38,458 bases of DNA from a virus: IMG/VR virus record IMGVR_UViG_3300045988_156575. The stretch is one strand, 5' to 3'. The notes below the pieces were generated by a model. It worked only from the letters and a program-made list of their open reading frames with translations, ran no database searches and had not been told where the DNA came from. Positions 1 to 38,458 of the stretch are shown piece after piece (position 1 is the stretch's first letter; every line of letters begins with the position of its first letter). The translations under genes were made by a program, and so were the position numbers.

Positions 1-77
1 CGCCACCGGCGATACCGCAGTCCAGCTTGGGTCCAGCTCGGGCACGTCCTACGTCGAGGGCGACGAGGTCGCGCTGT
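1..77. repeat. Terminal overlap copy 1 (identical to 38382..38458)
   Basis: Compared base by base: cgccaccggcgataccgcagtccagcttgg...gcgctgt is present at both ends. Confidence 0.95.
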
Positions 78-2900: not shown

Positions 2901-3290
2901 ATGAACAAGGACTACCTGGCAATGATGGACGAGGGCGAGCTCGAGGCATACGCCAAGGTCCTCGGCTTCACGACCGCCGCCGCGCAGACGGCGGCCGACA
3001 AGGCGAAGCTCATCGAGCAGAAGCGAGGACGCTGCGCCGAGCTGACCGTTCTCGGCATCGCCATGAGCATCCCCGTCAAGCGAGCGCACGACCGCCGCTT
3101 CATCGACGCCATAAACAAGGAGGACCGCACGACCGAGGAGCTCGACGGGGCGTTCCTCTTCCTCCTCGGCGACGAGCAGTACGAGAGCCTCATGGAGGCC
3201 GTGACCGAGGACGACGGCACGCAGGACGACGATGCGCTGGGCTACGCCTACAACAAGCTGCTCTACTCGGCCGAACTAAAAAACTTCTAG
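2901..3290 (+). CDS. Tail assembly chaperone (gpG-like, 0-frame product)
   Basis: 129-aa acidic protein between the major tail and tape measure genes. It ends just after a slippery heptamer. Confidence 0.8.
   Translation: MNKDYLAMMDEGELEAYAKVLGFTTAAAQTAADKAKLIEQKRGRCAELTVLGIAMSIPVKRAHDRRFIDAINKEDRTTEELDGAFLFLLGDEQYESLMEAVTEDDGTQDDDALGYAYNKLLYSAELKNF
3278..3284 (+). promoter_or_regulatory. Programmed -1 ribosomal frameshift slippery site A_AAA_AAC
   Basis: The 0-frame codons are CTA AAA AAC TTC TAG. The -1 frame stays open from here to 3658. Confidence 0.8.
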
Positions 3291-3658
3291 AGCTCGCCGA
3301 CCTTGAGGAACGCCACCTGCCCCTGCTCAGGCACGACTTCAGGGTCTTCTACGGCTGCTGCTACGACGAGGTCGGCGCCGCCGAGGCGTACGACCTCGTG
3401 AGGACGCTGCCGGACGGGTCGCTCACCGTGGCGGCCCTCCACCCGGAGCGCAGCTGGACCCAGGAGCAGCACCTGGCGGCGGACGTCGTGGACAGCGTCT
3501 ACGCGGCGGCGACCGCGCTGTGCGGCGGCAAGGCATCGGAAGCCCCGAGGGTGCCCCGCCCGCGGGACGTGGCCGCCGCCGGCGCCGCGGTAGAGCGCGC
3601 GGCGTCGGTTCGTGCCCGCATCGAGAACACCGAGTGGGTGGAGGTGACGGATGGCTGA
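3284..3658 (+). CDS. -1 frame extension of the tail assembly chaperone (gpGT-like fusion: 2901..3284 joined to 3284..3658)
   Basis: The -1 frame reads KKLLELADLEERHL...LPDGSLTVAALHPERSWTQEQHLAADVVDSVYAA without a stop. No RBS-backed start of its own was found. It ends overlapping the tape measure start. Confidence 0.75.
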   Translation, partial: LLELADLEERHLPLLRHDFRVFYGCCYDEVGAAEAYDLVRTLPDGSLTVAALHPERSWTQEQHLAADVVDSVYAAATALCGGKASEAPRVPRPRDVAAAGAAVERAASVRARIENTEWVEVTDG

Positions 3659-11632: not shown

Positions 11633-12541
11633 ATGGCAAATGCAAAGACACTGGTCGTCGGCGGCCAGTCACTCAACGTCATCGACGATACCGCGCGCAG
11701 CAACGCGCAGACGGCGCTCAACAACGCCGAGTACAACCGAATGGCGCTCATCGGCAAGTACGGCGGTCAGAGCATCGCGACGCTGCTCGCCGGAGAGATC
11801 GGCGGCGGCACGGTCTACGACGCGCTGCACAAGCGCATCGTGGCGAACAACTTCGCGGGCCTGCGCGTGGGCGACTACCTCGACGTTCCGCTCGTCTCCG
11901 CGTCCGGCGTGGCGGGCCAGCAGTCCGTACGATTCATCATCGCGCACATCGACCCGTACCTGTGGTGCGACGACCGCAGCAAGGGGCACCACATCGCGTT
12001 CGTGGCCTCCGCGCCCATCGCGGTCAGCTCGTCCTACGACGGGGTCGCCAACTCCTCGTGCATCCCGTGGAACGAGACGAACACCAACCAGGGCACGGCG
12101 GACATCAAGAACCCGTACCTGTGCTCGCAGCTCAAGGGCTGGGAGACGGCCTTCGAGGCGTGCCTGCCCGAGGGCCTGACCAAGTACATCCTCACGCAGC
12201 GCGTGCTGCTCGAGGAGCGCTACAGCGCCTCCGGTGCGCTCACCGACTCCAACAACTGGAGCTGGCAGGACATCGGCAAGGTCTGGTCGCTCTCCGAGAT
12301 GGAGGTCTACGGCTGCCCGGTTTGGGGCACGCCCGGCTACTCCGTCGGCTTCGACTGCCAGTTCGACCTCTTCAAGGACACCGCACACCGACTCAACGGT
12401 AGCCGCTTCACCTGGTGGCTCCGTTCCGTCAGGGGTGGCTCGTCTGCGACCGTCTGCTACGTCAACACCAACGGCTCCGCCAGCTTCGGCGATGCCGCGA
12501 GCGCCTGGGTTCGCCCGCGCGTGGGCTTCCTCCTAGGGTAG
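11633..12541 (+). CDS. DGR target protein: terminal tail fibre / receptor-binding protein with a C-terminal variable region
   Basis: Strong RBS (AAGGAGG), 302 aa. The C-terminus ...SRFTWWLRSVRGGSSATVCYVNTNGSASFGDAASAWVRPRVGFLLG is encoded by the VR. Confidence 0.9.
   Translation: MANAKTLVVGGQSLNVIDDTARSNAQTALNNAEYNRMALIGKYGGQSIATLLAGEIGGGTVYDALHKRIVANNFAGLRVGDYLDVPLVSASGVAGQQSVRFIIAHIDPYLWCDDRSKGHHIAFVASAPIAVSSSYDGVANSSCIPWNETNTNQGTADIKNPYLCSQLKGWETAFEACLPEGLTKYILTQRVLLEERYSASGALTDSNNWSWQDIGKVWSLSEMEVYGCPVWGTPGYSVGFDCQFDLFKDTAHRLNGSRFTWWLRSVRGGSSATVCYVNTNGSASFGDAASAWVRPRVGFLLG
12401..12535 (+). repeat. DGR variable repeat (VR)
   Basis: It aligns to 13069-13203 at an offset of 668. Across 12401-12525 there are 15 mismatches, all at TR adenines, and no other mismatches. 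Confidence 0.92.
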
Positions 12542-12569
12542 CGAAGCGGACCGTACAGGACACCCATCG

Positions 12570-12596
12570 GGCGCACGCCTCGCGCGTGCGCCTTTT
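12570..12596 (+). terminator. GC hairpin plus T-run just downstream of the VR and target stop codon
   Basis: ggcgcacgc (12570-12578) pairs with gcgtgcgcc (12584-12592). The loop is 5 nt and TTTT follows. Confidence 0.65.
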
Positions 12597-12597
12597 C

Positions 12598-13044
12598 ATG
12601 TCACGAGAGAGGAGCATCGCCTTGAGCGGAGTACCCGAGAGGCTTAGAAACCTGAGCGAGCGCGAGTTCTACAACACGGCCATCGAGCTGCGCGTGGAGG
12701 TTCTGGGCATCATCACGTCGAGCGCCATCCCGAAATCGCAGCGCTTCACGTTCGCCGTCCCGATGGCGGAGACGGCCCGCAGCGTCGTCTACAACATCGT
12801 CAAGTCAGAGGCGTTCTACCCGAACACCCCCGAGAACGTCGCGGCACGCAAGCGCTACCTCACGTTGGCCGTCGCCGACTGCGAGCAGCTGTACCAGGAC
12901 GCGCAGGCATACCTCGAGGTGTACCGCCGGAAGGGGGACACGCAGCACGCCGGGGCATTCGAGCGCATGGCGGGGCTCGTCGACTCCGAGATAAAGCTGC
13001 TCAAGGGTGCGCGCAAGGGCGTCAAGCTGATCGGGACGCGGTAG
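12598..13044 (+). CDS. avd: Accessory variability determinant (Avd-like helical-bundle protein)
   Basis: It sits between VR and TR. The product is about 140-148 aa, predicted helical and basic at the C-terminus, with an ...AETARSVVYNIVKSEA... segment like the Avd / 23S-IVS protein family. An alternative TTG start at 12622 has a better RBS (GAGAGGAG). Confidence 0.7.
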   Translation: MSRERSIALSGVPERLRNLSEREFYNTAIELRVEVLGIITSSAIPKSQRFTFAVPMAETARSVVYNIVKSEAFYPNTPENVAARKRYLTLAVADCEQLYQDAQAYLEVYRRKGDTQHAGAFERMAGLVDSEIKLLKGARKGVKLIGTR

Positions 13045-13068
13045 AATGGCAGGACGTCGTCCCTTGTT

Positions 13069-13203
13069 AACCGCTACAACTGGTGGCTCCGTTCCGTCAG
13101 GGGTGGCTCGTCTGCGAACGTCTGCTACGTCAACAACAACGGCAACGCCAACTACAACGATGCCACGAACGACTGGATTCGCCCGCGCGTGGGATTGCTC
13201 ATA
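13069..13203 (+). repeat. DGR template repeat (TR)
   Basis: It is noncoding in context. In the VR-equivalent frame it reads NRYNWWLRSVRGGSSANVCYVNNNGNANYNDATNDWIRPRVG, with 9 AAC codons. It contains about 28 adenines, of which 15 are substituted in the VR. Confidence 0.92.
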
Positions 13204-13403
13204 CTCGCCAGACAGCCCCGCCCATGCGTGGGGCTCCGAGCACATGAGGAAGGAAGGGCCGACGTTCGGGCACGCGCCCGTAAAGACGCATCCCGCTGGG
13301 AGGGCAGTCCGCTCCTTGCATGGCCGCGAGCTTCGGCGCTCGACGCGGTTTCATTGCTCCTCCCTAAGCGGCCTGGGAACGCCGGCGCCCATAGGCGCAG
13401 GCC

Positions 13404-14639
13404 GTGCGGGATGCCACCATGAATAGCGATGAGCGCCGAAAGGCCAGGAGAGCCAGGCGCGATGCGAAGAGGGCCGCGAACAGGGCGAAGCGCTGCGCGG
13501 CCCTCACCATCTCCAATGCCGCCCGCATCGAAAACATCCACGAGGCGGCACGCGACGCCGCCAAGGGCGTCCGCTGGAAGGCGAGCGTCCAGCGCTACAT
13601 GATCCACTCCCTGCGCAACTCGCTCTACGCACGCCGGGACCTCCTGGCGGGCAACGACATCCGCAAGGGCTTCGTCCGGTTCCACGTCATCGAGCGCGGG
13701 AAGGACAGGGCGATAGCCGCCCCGCGGTTCTCCGAACGCGTGATACAGAAGGCGGTCACGAGGGCCGTCATGGCCCCGGCGGTGTGGCCGACGCTCACGC
13801 CGGGATGCGCGGCCAACATGCGCGGCAGGGGCACGGACTACGCCCTCATGCGCCTGAAGGGGCAGCTCGCCGAGCATTACCGCAGGCACGGCGCGGAGGG
13901 CTACGTCCTGCTCATGGACTTCTCCGACTACTTCGGGACAATCGACCATGGAACGGCGCTGGACCTCGTGAGACGGACGCTCGCAGACCCCGCGGCCGTC
14001 GAGTTCATGCGCCTGCAGATAGAGGCGAACGGCAGGATCGGGCTCGGCCTCGGCAGCGAGCCGAACCAGGCGCTGGCCGTCGCCATACCGTCCCCGCTCG
14101 ACCACCTCGGCGAGCGCTGGCGCGGAATCGAGGCGTCGGGCCGGTACATGGACGACTCCTACTTCATGGCGCTCGACAAGGAGACCCTCTGGCGGTTCCT
14201 CGACGCCGCCCGCGCCCTGTGCACGTCGCTCGGCATCACTATCAACGAGAGGAAGACAAGGGTGGTGAAGCTCACGCGCGGGTTCACGTTCCTCAAGAAG
14301 CGGTTCCGCTTCACCGAGTCGGGCAGGATCGTCGTGACGCCGATACCCAAGTCCCTCGCGCGTGAGCGCCGGAAGATGCGCACACATGCACGCATGGTCG
14401 CCGAGGGAAGCATGACGCTCGAGCAGGCGTACGTCTCCTACATGTCGTTCCGCGGGTCTCTCGAGCGGAAGCGGGGCGACGGCAGGCCGAGGTTCCGCAT
14501 GAACGTGCACCGGGTCGTGCGCGACTTCGACCGGCTGTTCGTCGAGCTAGTCGTCGGTGCCGGCCAGTCTCACGCCACCGATACGATGCCCGTACATCAA
14601 CTACACCCACTAACAGAAAGGAGTCCGAATGGACACTAA
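13404..14639 (+). CDS. DGR reverse transcriptase
   Basis: RT motifs are readable: KDRAIAAP, LLMDFSDYFGTIDH, GLGLGSEPNQALA, RYMDDSYF, INERKTRV, FTFLKKRF. The GTG start at 13404 and the ATG at 13419 are both possible. Confidence 0.9.
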   Translation: MRDATMNSDERRKARRARRDAKRAANRAKRCAALTISNAARIENIHEAARDAAKGVRWKASVQRYMIHSLRNSLYARRDLLAGNDIRKGFVRFHVIERGKDRAIAAPRFSERVIQKAVTRAVMAPAVWPTLTPGCAANMRGRGTDYALMRLKGQLAEHYRRHGAEGYVLLMDFSDYFGTIDHGTALDLVRRTLADPAAVEFMRLQIEANGRIGLGLGSEPNQALAVAIPSPLDHLGERWRGIEASGRYMDDSYFMALDKETLWRFLDAARALCTSLGITINERKTRVVKLTRGFTFLKKRFRFTESGRIVVTPIPKSLARERRKMRTHARMVAEGSMTLEQAYVSYMSFRGSLERKRGDGRPRFRMNVHRVVRDFDRLFVELVVGAGQSHATDTMPVHQLHPLTERSPNGH

Positions 14640-17387: not shown

Positions 17388-18626
17388 TCAGAGCGTCTCG
17401 GCGTCCAGACCGGTGCCATTAAAACCGCCGCCCGCGCCGCCGCCCTCGACGATCTGCAGAGCGCGCCCGACCTGCCTGGCGGCCTTCTCGCGCTCCGCGA
17501 GGCCCGGTTTGATGTAATGGCGGTAATCTGTCCCCAGGTCCGTATGACCGTGCAGATCCATGATGCTCAGCGGGTCGACCTCGGTCGCCGCCATGATGGT
17601 CTCGGACGTGTGGCGCAGGGCCTTAGGAGGGATATACCGCAGGTCATGGCGCACGCACATGCGCCGCCACGCCCGCACGAGATTATCGCCGCGCATATTG
17701 ACGATGCGCTGTCCGCTCCACTCCCGCACCTGCTCCGTAACCGAAGTGCCGCCCTCGACGGTTATGCTCGGGCGCAGCTCGTCCATGATCTGGTGCAGGC
17801 GCTCGCGGCCCGCCAATAAAACCGGCACGGTGCGCACGGAATGGGCGTTCTTGGTCTCCTTCACGCCGTCCTCGTCCGTGTACGCGCGGCAGACCTCGAT
17901 GTACTCCGACACGGTCGGCTGCCCAGTGGCGAAGTCGTAGGTCGTGGTGACCTTGAGGTCGCACGGGCGCACGGCCAGCGCCTCCTCCTTGCGCAGTCCG
18001 CTCAGGCCCAGGATGAGGTAGGCGTTCATGACCAGGTCCGCGCGGTCGTCGCTGGCGGCGAGCCTGCGCAGCGCCTCGGCGGCCTCGGGGATGCTCCACG
18101 GCTCCACGGGCGCCTGCTTGGCCTTGGGCGCTATGACGCGGCGGCGGAAGGGCTCCACCGTCACCCATCCGTCATCGAAGGCGCGGCGCATGACGGCGCG
18201 GAGTGTCGTCTTGGTCTTGGCCGGCGCGCCCGAGCGCTCGATGCAGCTTCGCATCATATCGTGGGTGATCTCGGAGATGTCGACCGACCCCAGGACGGGG
18301 GAGATGTAGTTGTCCATCTGGCCGTCGTACTCGCGTAGGCTCGCCTTTGAGCGCGGCTTGCCGCGGTTGCTGGGCGAGTCGCGGAACACGCCCCAGTAGT
18401 ACATGTCGAGCGTCACGCCCGCGTGCGCCGCCTGGGACACGCCGAGCTCGCGGGCGAGCTGGGCGATGGCGACGTCGGCCTCGGTCTCGGTGCCGTGGAC
18501 GGTGCGCGACACGCGCCGCACGTGTCCGTCCGCGCGGAAGCCCGCCTGCACGCGGATCACCCACTTGCCCGGAGCCACCTCGCGCTTCGAGCCGAGTTTT
18601 GACCTGGAATTGTCGTTGGTTGCCAT
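17388..18626 (-). CDS. int: Tyrosine integrase (phage integrase family), adjacent to attP
   Basis: Chosen start is MATNDNSRSK.... Catalytic-type motifs are ...GLRKEEAL..., ...ALRHTSETIMA..., ...LHGHTD..DYRHY. Confidence 0.88.
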   Translation of the reverse strand: MATNDNSRSKLGSKREVAPGKWVIRVQAGFRADGHVRRVSRTVHGTETEADVAIAQLARELGVSQAAHAGVTLDMYYWGVFRDSPSNRGKPRSKASLREYDGQMDNYISPVLGSVDISEITHDMMRSCIERSGAPAKTKTTLRAVMRRAFDDGWVTVEPFRRRVIAPKAKQAPVEPWSIPEAAEALRRLAASDDRADLVMNAYLILGLSGLRKEEALAVRPCDLKVTTTYDFATGQPTVSEYIEVCRAYTDEDGVKETKNAHSVRTVPVLLAGRERLHQIMDELRPSITVEGGTSVTEQVREWSGQRIVNMRGDNLVRAWRRMCVRHDLRYIPPKALRHTSETIMAATEVDPLSIMDLHGHTDLGTDYRHYIKPGLAEREKAARQVGRALQIVEGGGAGGGFNGTGLDAETL

Positions 18627-18664
18627 ATAATGGTCCTGCCTTTCCCTTATTTGCCGGAGGGCAT

Positions 18665-18706
18665 GCCCCGTGCGGATCCGCCAAGATTGCCGCACGGGGC
18701 TTTTTT
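18665..18706 (+). terminator. Strong plus-strand intrinsic terminator in the int-hicB gap
   Basis: 11-bp stem gccccgtgcgg (18665-18675) pairs with ccgcacggggc (18690-18700), followed by TTTTTT on the + strand only. Confidence 0.55.
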
Positions 18707-29932: not shown

Positions 29933-30022
29933 TGCAGACAATTGCAGACAATTGCACACTTCTGCAGACAATTGCAGATAGTTGCAGACGATTGCACACA
30001 ATTGCAGACCGTTGCAGGTTTC
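29933..30022 (+). repeat. Nine tandem 10-bp units (consensus TGCAGACAAT), exactly helically phased
   Basis: Units begin at 29933, 29943, 29953, 29963, 29973, 29983, 29993, 30003 and 30013. Each starts with TGCA. Confidence 0.9.
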
Positions 30023-38172: not shown

Positions 38173-38458
38173 ATGCCAGTACCCGCAAACATCTCCGACT
38201 CCAAGGCCATCAACGCCTCGATGGACCAGGAGTTCATCCGCAACTTCGAGGGCGACCTCGACCGCCTGCTCGAGGTCCTCGGCATCTTCGGCGCCGAGAC
38301 CATCGCCGCCGGCACCACGCTCAAGATGCTCAAGGTGACCGGCGAGCTCAACAACTCCAAGACCGACGGCTCCAAGGAGTCCGCCACCGGCGATACCGCA
38401 GTCCAGCTTGGGTCCAGCTCGGGCACGTCCTACGTCGAGGGCGACGAGGTCGCGCTGT
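38173..38458 (+). CDS. Major capsid protein, N-terminal part (continues at nt 78 / nt 1-730 through the circular junction)
   Basis: The ATG follows an AGAAAGGGG RBS. The ORF runs off the window end in phase with 1..730. Confidence 0.8.
   Translation, partial: MPVPANISDSKAINASMDQEFIRNFEGDLDRLLEVLGIFGAETIAAGTTLKMLKVTGELNNSKTDGSKESATGDTAVQLGSSSGTSYVEGDEVAL
38382..38458. repeat. Terminal overlap copy 2 (identical to 1..77)
   Basis: Same 77-nt string as the window start. This looks like an assembly closure overlap rather than a biological repeat. Confidence 0.95.

What the first reader, a model, noticed from the sequence alone, without database searches (positions are those of the whole stretch)
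12401..13203. VR/TR pair: 15 mismatches, every one at a template adenine
I aligned 12401-12525 against 13069-13193 (125 bp) by hand. There are 15 differences, at VR positions 12402, 12408, 12411, 12450, 12468, 12476, 12477, 12483, 12486, 12488, 12489, 12497, 12501, 12504 and 12509. Each corresponds to an A in the TR, replaced by G, C or T in the VR. All non-A positions are identical.

The TR holds about 28 adenines, so roughly half are substituted. In the VR frame the TR reads NRYNWWLRSVRGGSSANVCYVNNNGNANYNDATNDWIRPRVG. Its adenines are concentrated at the first two positions of AAC/TAC-type codons. This is the classic design that maximises amino-acid diversity without creating stop codons. 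It is direct evidence that mutagenic retrohoming has occurred.
Basis: seen in the sequence. Interest (0 to 1): 0.85.

Follow-up and report, generated by a model that had tools for sequence, protein, structure and literature searches.

The report
Working diversity-generating retroelement in Collinsella phage
The two repeats are the variable and template copies of a standard diversity-generating retroelement, a reverse-transcriptase system that rewrites the tip of a phage tail protein. It sits in a complete temperate phage of the gut bacterium Collinsella, so this is a clean example of a known mechanism, not a new one.

Summary
Window 12401-12525 and 13069-13193 align without gaps, and all 15 differences fall on the 28 adenines of the downstream copy (P = 4e-12).

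The anatomy is that of a canonical diversity-generating retroelement (DGR) with Bordetella-phage gene order:
- a DUF6273 tail-associated target gene carrying the variable repeat (VR) at its 3' end;
- a GC-rich initiation-of-mutagenic-homing (IMH) stretch, then a hairpin/terminator;
- a small four-helix accessory protein (divergent Avd-like);
- the template repeat (TR);
- a structured spacer RNA (Rfam RT-2);
- a DGR-type reverse transcriptase (RT).

The window is a complete circular 38.4-kb temperate siphovirus-type phage. Near-identical prophages lie in Collinsella genomes.

In 14 related genomes the TR is nearly constant, all 14 VRs differ, and 186 of 195 VR/TR mismatches sit at TR adenines. 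VR diversity falls at codon positions 1 and 2, not 3. Activity is therefore recent and recurrent in this lineage.

Beyond the finding, covariation in 38 relatives supports a hairpin just 3' of the TR and a roughly 10-bp duplex bracketing it. These resemble RNA elements reported for the Bordetella element.

Verdict: real, correctly interpreted, and a new member of a known kind. Interest is low to moderate.

The parts
11633..12541 (+). Target (variable-protein) gene, 302 aa. It lies after the tail genes and before the lysis genes.
   Evidence: ORF. Pfam DUF6273 (PF19789) at aa 215-295, E 1.5e-7, above the curated cut-off. 734 homologs were found, and all 120 listed carry PF19789.
12401..12525 (+). 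Variable repeat (VR): the last 41 codons but five of the target gene.
   Evidence: 15/15 mismatches to the TR lie at TR adenines. There are 14 distinct VRs in 14 related genomes. In 118 homologs, protein entropy is 2.32 bits at A-containing codons and 0.22 at other VR codons.
12510..12535 (+). IMH-like 3' end of the VR. A GC-rich stretch (12510-12525) is identical to the TR. It is followed by 10 nt with three fixed differences from the TR (C/A at 12526, C/G at 12529, C/A at 12533).
   Evidence: Alignment. The VR-type and TR-type versions are each constant over these 10 nt in all 14 genomes, so they are fixed markers and not stochastic A-mutagenesis. Their function is inferred from BPP-1.
12570..12593 (+). 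GC-rich hairpin (9-bp stem, 5-nt loop) followed by TTTT, 28 nt after the target stop codon. It is either a terminator of the target gene, a DGR target-recognition hairpin, or both.
   Evidence: The stem is invariant in 13 genomes while the flanks vary. Its role is not tested.
12622..13044 (+). Accessory gene in the Avd position (TTG start, 140 aa): a divergent Avd-like four-helix bundle.
   Evidence: No Pfam, PHROG or NCBIfam hit reaches threshold. The AF2 model is a four-helix bundle, pLDDT 88.8. The top two BFVD fold matches are 'Avd-like protein', TM 0.69-0.76. PDB 2rld, deposited as 'S23 ribosomal protein family', has TMt 0.74. 12 of 29 family members hit PF05635 below threshold. All 75 analysable loci that encode a homolog have a VR upstream and a TR downstream. 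hhalign against bAvd was negative.
13042..13047 (+). Conserved TAGAAT (TA[G/A/T]AAT in relatives) overlapping the accessory-gene stop codon. It is a candidate -10 box for the TR RNA.
   Evidence: T, A, A and T are invariant in 38 diverse relatives. This is inference only. The two-hexamer promoter scan found nothing here.
13053..13065 (+). 5' strand of a long-range duplex just upstream of the TR. It pairs with 13254-13266, and the conserved core is 13056-13065.
   Evidence: The window forms 12 of 13 standard pairs. In 38 relatives the core 10 pairs are kept, and 5 pairs of the 13-pair helix change on both sides.
13069..13193 (+). Template repeat (TR), non-coding, with 28 adenines.
   Evidence: It is identical in 8 of the 14 related genomes compared, including the window. 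Nucleotide diversity is 0.034, against 0.147 in the VR.
13194..13203 (+). IMH*-like end of the TR (ATTGCTCATA), which differs from the VR version at three fixed positions.
13214..13235 (+). 8-bp stem-loop immediately 3' of the TR (13214-13221 paired with 13228-13235).
   Evidence: 8 of 8 pairs show changes on both sides across 38 relatives, and 89.5% of cells are paired. Its position and size match the Avd-binding stem-loop class described for Avd-type DGRs (bioRxiv 10.1101/2023.10.23.563531).
13254..13266 (+). 3' strand of the long-range duplex, inside the spacer.
13222..13434 (+). [quoted passage not shown]
   Evidence: 74.2 bits against a gathering score of 40, E 2.9e-15, with the full model matched. 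The same hit occurs in four relatives. It is the least variable segment of the cassette apart from the 16-nt VR 3' end, with pi 0.027. The equivalent spacer of BPP-1 matches RF03022 Phage_DGR.
13419..14639 (+). DGR-type reverse transcriptase, 406 aa.
   Evidence: RVT_1 and phrog_1423 at 2e-55. The best PDB hit is 8ub7_A, which is BPP-1 bRT, with 27% identity over 269 aa. YMDD is at 243. Motif 4 is LGSEPNQ at 211. R97 aligns with bRT R74.

Best explanation
This is a functional-looking, canonical diversity-generating retroelement (DGR) carried by a complete temperate siphovirus-type phage of Collinsella.

Proposed mechanism, by homology with Bordetella phage BPP-1:
1. The non-coding template repeat (13069-13193) is transcribed together with the structured spacer RNA (Rfam RT-2, 13222-13434).
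2. The reverse transcriptase (13419-14639), together with the small four-helix accessory protein (12622-13044), copies the TR RNA into cDNA. It misincorporates specifically opposite template adenines.
3. The cDNA replaces the variable repeat (12401-12525) at the 3' end of the tail-associated DUF6273 gene. The GC-rich IMH end of the VR sets the direction of transfer.
4. Because all 28 TR adenines sit at codon positions 1 or 2, each round rewrites up to 18 codons of the presumed receptor-binding surface without making a stop codon. About 3e16 peptides are possible, which lets the phage shift receptor specificity.

Shown here: the A-specific mismatch pattern, the gene set and its order, the RNA family match and RNA covariation, and recurrent VR turnover among relatives.

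Inferred from BPP-1: cis-priming by the spacer RNA, the role of the accessory protein, IMH function, and receptor binding by the target.
For: - **Mismatch pattern.** 15/15 mismatches lie at TR adenines, P = 4e-12.
- **Relatives.** Fourteen related genomes have 14 distinct VRs, and 186 of 195 mismatches lie at TR adenines. Eight of the 14 TRs are identical.
- **Codon bias.** VR diversity at codon positions 1/2/3 is 0.187/0.234/0.018. In the rest of the gene it is 0.066/0.046/0.137. Protein entropy is 2.32 bits at A-codons and 0.22 bits at other VR codons.
- **Reverse transcriptase.** Its best solved homolog is BPP-1 bRT. YMDD, the equivalent of R74, and an [L]GxxxNQ motif 4 are present (the roles of R74 and I181 are from PMC7826257).
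- **Accessory protein.** A confident four-helix bundle, with top viral fold hits named 'Avd-like protein'. It is flanked by a VR and a TR in 75 of 75 analysable loci.
- **Spacer RNA.** It matches Rfam RT-2. The BPP-1 spacer matches Phage_DGR at the same position.
- **RNA structure.** Covariation supports the post-TR hairpin and the TR-bracketing duplex.
- **Target.** It carries DUF6273, a published C-type-lectin-like DGR target domain (PMC10743442, PMC11792537).
- **Phage context.** Head, portal, protease, scaffold, tail, tape measure, amidase and integrase genes are present. A 77-nt terminal overlap implies a circular genome.
- **Host.** Nine loci with RT 93-96% identical lie in Collinsella genomes, including a cultured C. 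aerofaciens.
Against: - Nothing contradicts the DGR reading.
- The accessory protein shows no significant sequence similarity to bAvd or to any Pfam model at threshold.
- RT motif 4 has N where the signature has S.
- The AF2 model of the target was too poor (pLDDT 45.7) to confirm a C-type lectin fold here.
- The hairpin after the VR could simply be a transcription terminator.
- Thermodynamic folding of the spacer and of the hairpin region is no better than shuffled sequence at this GC content.
- Activity of this individual copy is not demonstrated.
Confidence: 0.95

Rival explanations
1. A fossil DGR. The VR/TR pair records past mutagenic retrohoming, but this particular copy no longer works. 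The defect might lie in the RT, in the divergent accessory protein, or in the RNA.
For: No experiment or read-level heterogeneity is available for this genome. Motif 4 deviates from the signature by S to N. Some relatives show decay: the TRs of L011 and L014 have lost 10-12 adenines, and L026 lacks most of the spacer.
Against: All ORFs are intact and the catalytic YMDD is present. LGSEPNQ is shared by 85 of 86 relatives, so it is the lineage norm and not a lesion. The TR keeps all 28 adenines. The RNA motif scores as well as in relatives. Genomes with RT 93-96% identical all carry different VRs, so turnover is recent.
Confidence: 0.1
2. An ordinary duplicated segment (paralogous repeat) that diverged by random point mutation. 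The neighbouring reverse transcriptase would be unrelated, for example retron-like, group II intron-like or a defence RT.
For: Weak sub-threshold NCBIfam similarity of the RT to group II intron and retron RT models.
Against: Random divergence gives 15/15 at adenines with P = 4e-12. It would also concentrate changes at codon position 3, the reverse of what is seen. The downstream copy is non-coding yet far more conserved than the coding copy. All NCBIfam scores are far below the cut-offs. The best structural homolog is the DGR enzyme bRT.
Confidence: 0.01
3. Cassette-type gene conversion or adenosine-deaminase editing. Either the downstream repeat is a silent donor cassette copied faithfully into the expressed gene, or the A changes come from deamination of DNA or RNA.
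For: A donor copy and a recipient copy in direct orientation, 668 nt apart, could recombine. A to G is the commonest change: 117 of 186 substitutions.
Against: Faithful conversion would erase mismatches, not create A-specific ones. Deamination gives only A to G, yet A to T (37) and A to C (32) are frequent. An RT, an Avd-like gene and a DGR-position RNA are all present.
Confidence: 0.01

Closest known systems
Bordetella phage BPP-1 DGR (mtd-avd-TR-brt), the prototype
   Same: Same gene order: target with a 3' VR, a small accessory protein, the TR, a structured spacer RNA, then the RT. It likewise sits in a temperate tailed phage among the tail genes. TR length is similar (125-135 nt against 134 nt). 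There is a GC-rich IMH with a few fixed IMH/IMH* differences. The RT is 27% identical to bRT, with YMDD and the R74 equivalent conserved. A hairpin just 3' of the TR and a duplex bracketing the TR are present, as described for the BPP-1 RNP.
   Different: The target is DUF6273, not Mtd. The accessory protein is not detectably similar to bAvd in sequence. The spacer RNA belongs to a different Rfam family, RT-2 (RF03077), not Phage_DGR (RF03022). RT motif 4 is LGSEPNQ, not IGSLTSQ. The RT is 78 aa longer. The host is a Gram-positive actinobacterium.
DGRs of Eggerthella lenta prophages (Coriobacteriia), PMC8778435
   Same: Same host class. The same mtd-like, predicted avd, TR, RT architecture is described for prophage clades 3, 4, 7 and 10. 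That paper reports VR changes after chemostat culture for one prophage.
   Different: Different host genus (Collinsella). I did not compare sequences with those prophages, so the degree of relatedness is unknown.
DUF6273-target DGRs of gut Bacillota phages (Faecalibacterium phages Roos, Pioen, Lelie; nd4/nd12 'tentaclin' phages)
   Same: The variable region maps to the C-terminal end of a DUF6273 domain. That domain was modelled as C-type-lectin-like (PMC10743442, PMC11792537). The RTs are related at 32% identity.
   Different: There is a single short target (302 aa) with no Ig domains and no second target. The host phylum differs. The closest GenBank phage RT is only 41.6% identical (Roseburia phage Shimadzu).
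Rfam RT-2 RNA (RF03077; Weinberg et al. 2017, PMC5737381)
   Same: Full-length match at 74 bits.
   Different: The original paper linked only RT-10 to a DGR. It merely speculated that other RT motifs serve DGRs. Here RT-2 sits exactly in the TR-RT spacer of a DGR with proven A-specific VR/TR mismatches, in five genomes.

Membership tests
Diversity-generating retroelement (DGR) | A TR/VR repeat pair whose differences are confined to adenines of the template copy | tested here: met
   15/15 in the window and 186/195 over 14 genomes.
Diversity-generating retroelement (DGR) | The VR lies inside a protein-coding gene, usually at its 3' end, while the TR is non-coding or not under the same constraint | tested here: met
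   The VR ends 16 nt before the stop codon of ORF 11633-12541. The TR lies between the accessory gene and the RT.
Diversity-generating retroelement (DGR) | An adjacent reverse transcriptase of the DGR clade with the signature motif [I/V/L]GxxxSQ and YxDD | tested here: inconclusive
   The best solved homolog is the DGR enzyme bRT, and YMDD is present. Motif 4 is LGSEPNQ, so L, G and Q are kept but S is replaced by N, in 85 of 86 relatives. No RT phylogeny was built.
Diversity-generating retroelement (DGR) | TR adenines placed at codon positions 1 and 2 (AAY-rich), so that no stop codon can arise | tested here: met
   28 of 28 adenines are at positions 1 or 2, there are 10 AAC codons, and no stop is reachable.
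Diversity-generating retroelement (DGR) | IMH at the VR 3' end and a non-identical IMH* at the TR 3' end, which set the direction of transfer | tested here: met
   At sequence level, a GC-rich identical stretch (12510-12525) is followed by three fixed differences that are constant in 14 genomes. Function is not testable here.
Diversity-generating retroelement (DGR) | An accessory protein (Avd four-helix bundle or an HRDC protein) encoded in the cassette | tested here: inconclusive
   For: a four-helix bundle model at pLDDT 88.8; top BFVD hits named 'Avd-like protein' at weak E-values of 4e-3 and 9e-3; sub-threshold PF05635 hits in 12 of 29 members; strict VR/TR linkage in 75 of 75 loci. Against: no significant sequence match to bAvd or to any Pfam model.
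Diversity-generating retroelement (DGR) | The variable protein displays the VR on a C-type-lectin (or Ig-like) fold | tested here: inconclusive
   The Pfam DUF6273 hit is above the cut-off, and that domain is published as C-lectin-like (PMC10743442). My own AF2 model was unusable at pLDDT 45.7, and a profile search of the PDB found nothing.
Diversity-generating retroelement (DGR) | VR sequence turnover between closely related genomes or within populations | tested here: met
   There are 14 distinct VRs in 14 genomes whose RTs are 93-96% identical to the window's where measured. Within-population variation is not testable without reads.
Rfam RF03077 (RT-2 RNA) | Covariance-model score above the gathering threshold | tested here: met
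   74.2 bits against 40, with the full-length model matched. Four relatives score 75-77 bits.
Avd family (Pfam PF05635 23S_rRNA_IVP / PF22296 bAvd-like) | A profile match above the curated threshold | tested here: not met
   The window protein scores 13.6 bits against a cut-off of 33.8. The best family member reaches E 2.3e-4. hhalign against bAvd gives 0.1% probability. It therefore works in the Avd position with an Avd-like predicted fold, but it is not a demonstrable sequence member.

The most novel reading that the evidence does not exclude
The cassette may represent a Coriobacteriia-phage DGR lineage whose non-RT parts are so far unannotated. Three things point that way.

- **Accessory protein family.** It has at least 670 representative clusters in the 50%-identity library, no Pfam model, and strict DGR linkage. 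It would be an uncatalogued Avd family.
- **Rfam RT-2 RNA.** It would be this lineage's DGR RNA. It carries a covariation-supported post-TR hairpin and a TR-bracketing duplex equivalent to the Avd-binding stem-loop and cPRT-stop duplex of the Bordetella element. That would extend the cis-priming RNP architecture to Actinomycetota and assign a function to an orphan Rfam family.
- **TR erosion.** In some relatives the TR itself has lost adenines at A-specific sites. This suggests leaky self-homing or VR-to-TR conversion as a route of DGR decay.
Probability: 0.6. Interest if true: 0.4.

Novelty: new member of a known kind. Interest (0 to 1): 0.27.

Why it matters
As a DGR, this element adds little conceptually. 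DGRs are common in gut phages. They have been reported in Coriobacteriia prophages, and DUF6273 is a known target domain.

Its practical value is threefold:
- It is a complete, circular, well-delimited Collinsella phage genome. Collinsella is an abundant gut genus, and no record in the GenBank phage collection searched matched this cassette at DNA level. The genome shows an intact DGR with measurable natural VR turnover.
- It links an orphan Rfam family (RT-2) to the TR-RT spacer of a proven DGR. Covariation also supports two RNA elements that parallel those seen in the Bordetella RNP structure.
- It flags an accessory-protein family that current domain libraries miss. DGR-finding pipelines that rely on Avd models would therefore under-annotate it.

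Tried and rejected
- **DNA search of the GenBank phage collection** with the cassette found no match. A protein search found only distant RTs, at most 41.6% identical.
- **Sequence identification of the accessory protein failed.** I tried Pfam, PHROGs, NCBIfam, PDB phmmer, PDB profile search and hhalign against bAvd. A wider profile search found 670 representative clusters, but the distant members still do not reach Pfam Avd thresholds. Foldseek against the PDB was dominated by generic four-helix bundles such as Dps and ferritin.
- **AF2 model of the target protein** from 119 close homologs was unusable (pLDDT 45.7), because the alignment was too shallow. A PDB profile search for the target found nothing meaningful.
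- **Thermodynamic tests were uninformative** in this 67% GC sequence: hairpin z = -1.0, spacer z = -0.6, and duplexfold energies equal to shuffles. Only comparative covariation was informative.
- **The consensus promoter scan** found no sigma-70-type site in the cassette.
The closer alignment A1 worked.
- **A search for a second, remote VR** in the window was negative.
- **Literature searches** for 'RT-2' together with DGR, and for the PDB code 8UB7, returned nothing. The identity of 8ub7 was established instead by matching the BPP-1 Brt and Avd sequences to it.
Full report
**1. The observation**

I compared window 12401-12525 with 13069-13193 without gaps. In each one the downstream copy has A and the upstream copy has G, C or T. 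The downstream copy contains 28 A among 125 bases. The probability that 15 randomly placed mismatches all fall on those 28 sites is 4.1e-12.

The repeat finder reports the same pair, extended to 12400-12535 / 13068-13203. No other copy exists in the window on either strand, even when only non-A template positions are scored.

All 28 adenines sit at codon position 1 or 2. Enumerating every adenine substitution gives no stop codon and about 2.8e16 possible peptides.

**2. Anatomy of the locus**

The cassette reads, on the + strand:

| Element | Coordinates | Key evidence |
|---|---|---|
| Target gene, 302 aa | 11633-12541 | C-terminal part matches Pfam DUF6273 above the curated cut-off |
| VR | 12401-12525 | ends 16 nt before the stop codon |
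| GC-rich stretch identical in both repeats | 12510-12525 | followed by 10 nt with three fixed differences |
| 9-bp GC hairpin with a T-run | 12570-12593 |; stem invariant in relatives |
| 140-aa ORF from a TTG start | 12622-13044 | accessory protein, see section 5 |
| TR | 13069-13193 | non-coding |
| Spacer RNA | 13222-13434 | full-length Rfam RF03077 'RT-2 RNA', 74 bits against a gathering score of 40 |
| Reverse transcriptase, 406 aa | 13419-14639 | RVT_1; phrog_1423 at 2e-55 |

The RT's best match among solved structures is 8ub7 chain A. Its chain-A alignment gives the same residues as the BPP-1 Brt sequence, and chain B of that entry is BPP-1 Avd. The entry is therefore the Bordetella phage DGR bRT-Avd complex.

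The pairwise alignment with Brt shows 27% identity over 269 residues. It conserves YMDD and the arginine equivalent to bRT R74, and it places L211 opposite bRT I181. R74 and I181 are the two residues shown to promote adenine mutagenesis (PMC7826257). Motif 4 reads LGSEPNQ, a variant of the DGR signature [I/V/L]GxxxSQ with N for S. The same variant occurs in 85 of 86 related RTs.

**3. Genomic context**

The first and last 77 nt of the window are identical, so this is a circularly closed 38,381-bp genome. It encodes:
- portal, protease, scaffold and major head proteins;
- major tail protein, tape measure and tail proteins upstream of the cassette;
- an amidase just downstream;
- an integrase.

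It is a temperate siphovirus-type phage, and the DGR sits between the tail-fibre region and the lysis genes. There are no tRNAs.

No GenBank phage record matches the cassette at DNA level. The closest GenBank phage RT is 41.6% identical (Roseburia phage Shimadzu).

In the species-representative genome collection, nine loci with RT 93-96% identical all lie in Collinsella genomes, including a cultured C. aerofaciens strain. The host is therefore Collinsella (Coriobacteriia).

**4. Evidence from relatives that the element is, or recently was, active**

A pattern scan and the RT search brought in 13 related cassettes. The 125-nt TR is identical to the window's in seven of the 13 relatives. All 14 VRs differ. 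Of 195 VR/TR mismatches, 186 (95%) lie at adenines of the cognate TR. Of the 28 adenines, 27 vary in at least one of the first five relatives alone. At adenine sites the VR carries A 49%, G 32%, T 10% and C 9% of the time, so this is not deamination.

Nucleotide diversity by codon position across 13 aligned cassettes:

| Region | Position 1 | Position 2 | Position 3 |
|---|---|---|---|
| VR | 0.187 | 0.234 | 0.018 |
| Rest of the target gene | 0.066 | 0.046 | 0.137 |

The VR pattern is the reverse of the ordinary pattern in the rest of the gene.

At protein level, 118 homologs (78-93% identical overall) show 2.32 bits of entropy at the 18 VR codons that contain a template adenine. The 23 other VR codons show 0.22 bits, and the rest of the protein shows 0.41 bits.

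The three IMH/IMH* differences are constant in all 14 genomes, even though two of them are at template adenines. They therefore mark the edge of the transferred tract and are not products of mutagenesis.

**5. The accessory protein**

It has no significant hit in Pfam, PHROGs, NCBIfam or the PDB by sequence or profile. hhalign against bAvd is negative.

Several lines still place it in the Avd role:
- AlphaFold2 on a 29-sequence alignment gives a confident four-helix bundle (pLDDT 88.8).
- Its two best matches in the viral structure library are 'Avd-like protein' entries, with TM 0.69-0.76 and E 4e-3 and 9e-3.
- A PDB entry (2rld) deposited as a protein of the 'S23 ribosomal protein family' aligns with TM 0.74. 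My reading, from the family names only, is that this is the PF05635 family.
- Twelve of 29 family members hit PF05635 below threshold.
- In IMG/VR, all 75 analysable loci encoding a homolog (49-99% identity) have a repeat pair with adenine-biased mismatches on either side of the gene.

I therefore treat it as a functional Avd counterpart from a family that present domain libraries miss. I do not claim sequence membership.

**6. The RNA**

The BPP-1 spacer matches Rfam Phage_DGR (RF03022) at the position where this element matches RT-2. Weinberg et al. tied only RT-10 to a DGR and speculated that other RT motifs might also serve DGRs (PMC5737381).

I aligned 38 diverse TR regions and counted pairs for two helices that I named from the sequences:
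- **Post-TR hairpin.** The 8-bp hairpin immediately 3' of the TR (window 13214-13221 with 13228-13235) has double-sided changes at all 8 pairs, and 89.5% of cells are paired.
- **TR-bracketing duplex.** The duplex joins the 10-13 nt just 5' of the TR (13053-13065) to the spacer (13254-13266). Its core of 10 pairs is kept, and five pairs of the 13-pair helix show double-sided changes.

For the whole structure, 86.5% of cells pair, against at most 51% when partners are slid by 1-3 columns. No shuffle in 500 reaches the observed covariation.

A caveat applies: I derived the structure from these sequences, which inflates the paired percentage. The compensatory changes (for example C-G to A-U or G-C at column 39/241) are not subject to that bias.

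These two elements match in position and size the 'Avd-binding stem-loop' and 'cPRT Stop duplex' reported for the Bordetella RNP, which were predicted in 207 of 278 Avd-type DGRs (bioRxiv 10.1101/2023.10.23.563531). Energy-based folding was uninformative at this GC content.

**7. Mechanism**

Shown here:
- A-specific, codon-position-1/2 rewriting of the VR from a conserved non-coding template;
- the full DGR gene set in BPP-1 order;
- a conserved structured RNA with TR-bracketing pairing;
- recurrent VR turnover among near-identical phages.

Inferred from BPP-1 (PMC6182149, PMC7826257 and the cryo-EM preprint):
- The RT and accessory protein bind the TR-spacer RNA.
- The spacer cis-primes cDNA synthesis near the 3' end of the TR.
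- Adenines are miscopied.
- The cDNA replaces the VR, with the IMH defining the recipient.
- The target is a receptor-binding protein whose variation changes host-surface recognition.

The hairpin at 12570-12593 may be the target-recognition hairpin known from BPP-1, a plain terminator, or both. I could not distinguish these.

**8. Comparison with what is known, and verdict**

This is a DGR by every sequence-level criterion I could test. Three rows remain inconclusive: the exact motif-4 signature, sequence membership of the accessory protein, and the fold of the target.

DGRs with this architecture have been described in Eggerthella lenta prophages of the same bacterial class, with experimental VR change in one of them (PMC8778435). 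DUF6273 is a published DGR target domain with a C-lectin-like predicted fold (PMC10743442, PMC11792537).

The finding is therefore real and correctly interpreted, but it is a new member of a known kind. The modest added value lies in three places:
- the link between RT-2 and a proven DGR, with covariation evidence;
- the unannotated Avd-like family;
- the observation that some relatives' TRs have themselves lost adenines.

I score interest at 0.27.

Noticed in passing
L011 3651-3775 and L014 3651-3775 (the TRs of a Collinsella MAG and of C. aerofaciens NZ_JAQLFJ010000002); also L002, L013, L015 and L016: The template repeat itself has changed in some relatives, almost only at consensus adenine sites: 10/10 changes in L011, 12/13 in L014, and 27/30 across the clade. 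L011 and L014 retain only 18 and 16 adenines, against 28 in the window. This suggests leaky self-homing of mutagenised cDNA into the TR, or VR-to-TR gene conversion, as a route by which DGRs lose coding capacity. Their VRs still differ from their own TRs almost only at the remaining adenines.
   Followed up: partly
window 13042-13047: TAGAAT overlaps the accessory-gene stop codon and is conserved as TA[G/A/T]AAT in 38 diverse relatives. It looks like a -10 box. If so, the TR RNA would start at the 5' strand of the TR-bracketing duplex.
   Followed up: no
window 29933-30017: About 8.5 tandem copies of a 10-nt unit (TGCAGACAAT, 76% matches) lie in an intergenic stretch of the early or replication region. 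The helical-turn spacing suggests an iteron or operator-like protein-binding array.
   Followed up: no
window 1-77 and 38382-38458: There is an identical 77-nt overlap at the two ends. The window is a circularly closed 38,381-bp phage genome. The major head gene appears to run across the junction, because ORF 104-730 matches only the C-terminal two-thirds of the PHROG profile.
   Followed up: partly
window 14049-14069 (RT residues 211-217): RT motif 4 is LGSEPNQ, not the DGR signature [I/V/L]GxxxSQ. The S-to-N variant is fixed in 85 of 86 related RTs. BPP-1 has IGSLTSQ.
   Followed up: partly
L026 about 3060-3310: In this relative, whose accessory protein is 65% identical, the sequence right after the TR already resembles the 3' end of the RT-2 region and the RT start. 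Most of the spacer, including the hairpin and the duplex strand, therefore seems to be deleted. It may be a decayed cassette or an assembly artefact.
   Followed up: no
L008 and L010 VR position 85; L002 position 24; L010 position 7: The rare non-adenine VR/TR mismatches (9 of 195) are mostly T to G. Two independent genomes share the same T-to-G change at the T of a TAC codon flanked by adenines. This may be low-level misincorporation next to adenines, or selection.
   Followed up: no
window 17388-18695 (- strand): An integrase gene (phrog_1, E 5e-31) lies just downstream of the lysis module. Together with the Collinsella prophage loci, it shows the phage is temperate. The attachment site was not sought.
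   Followed up: no
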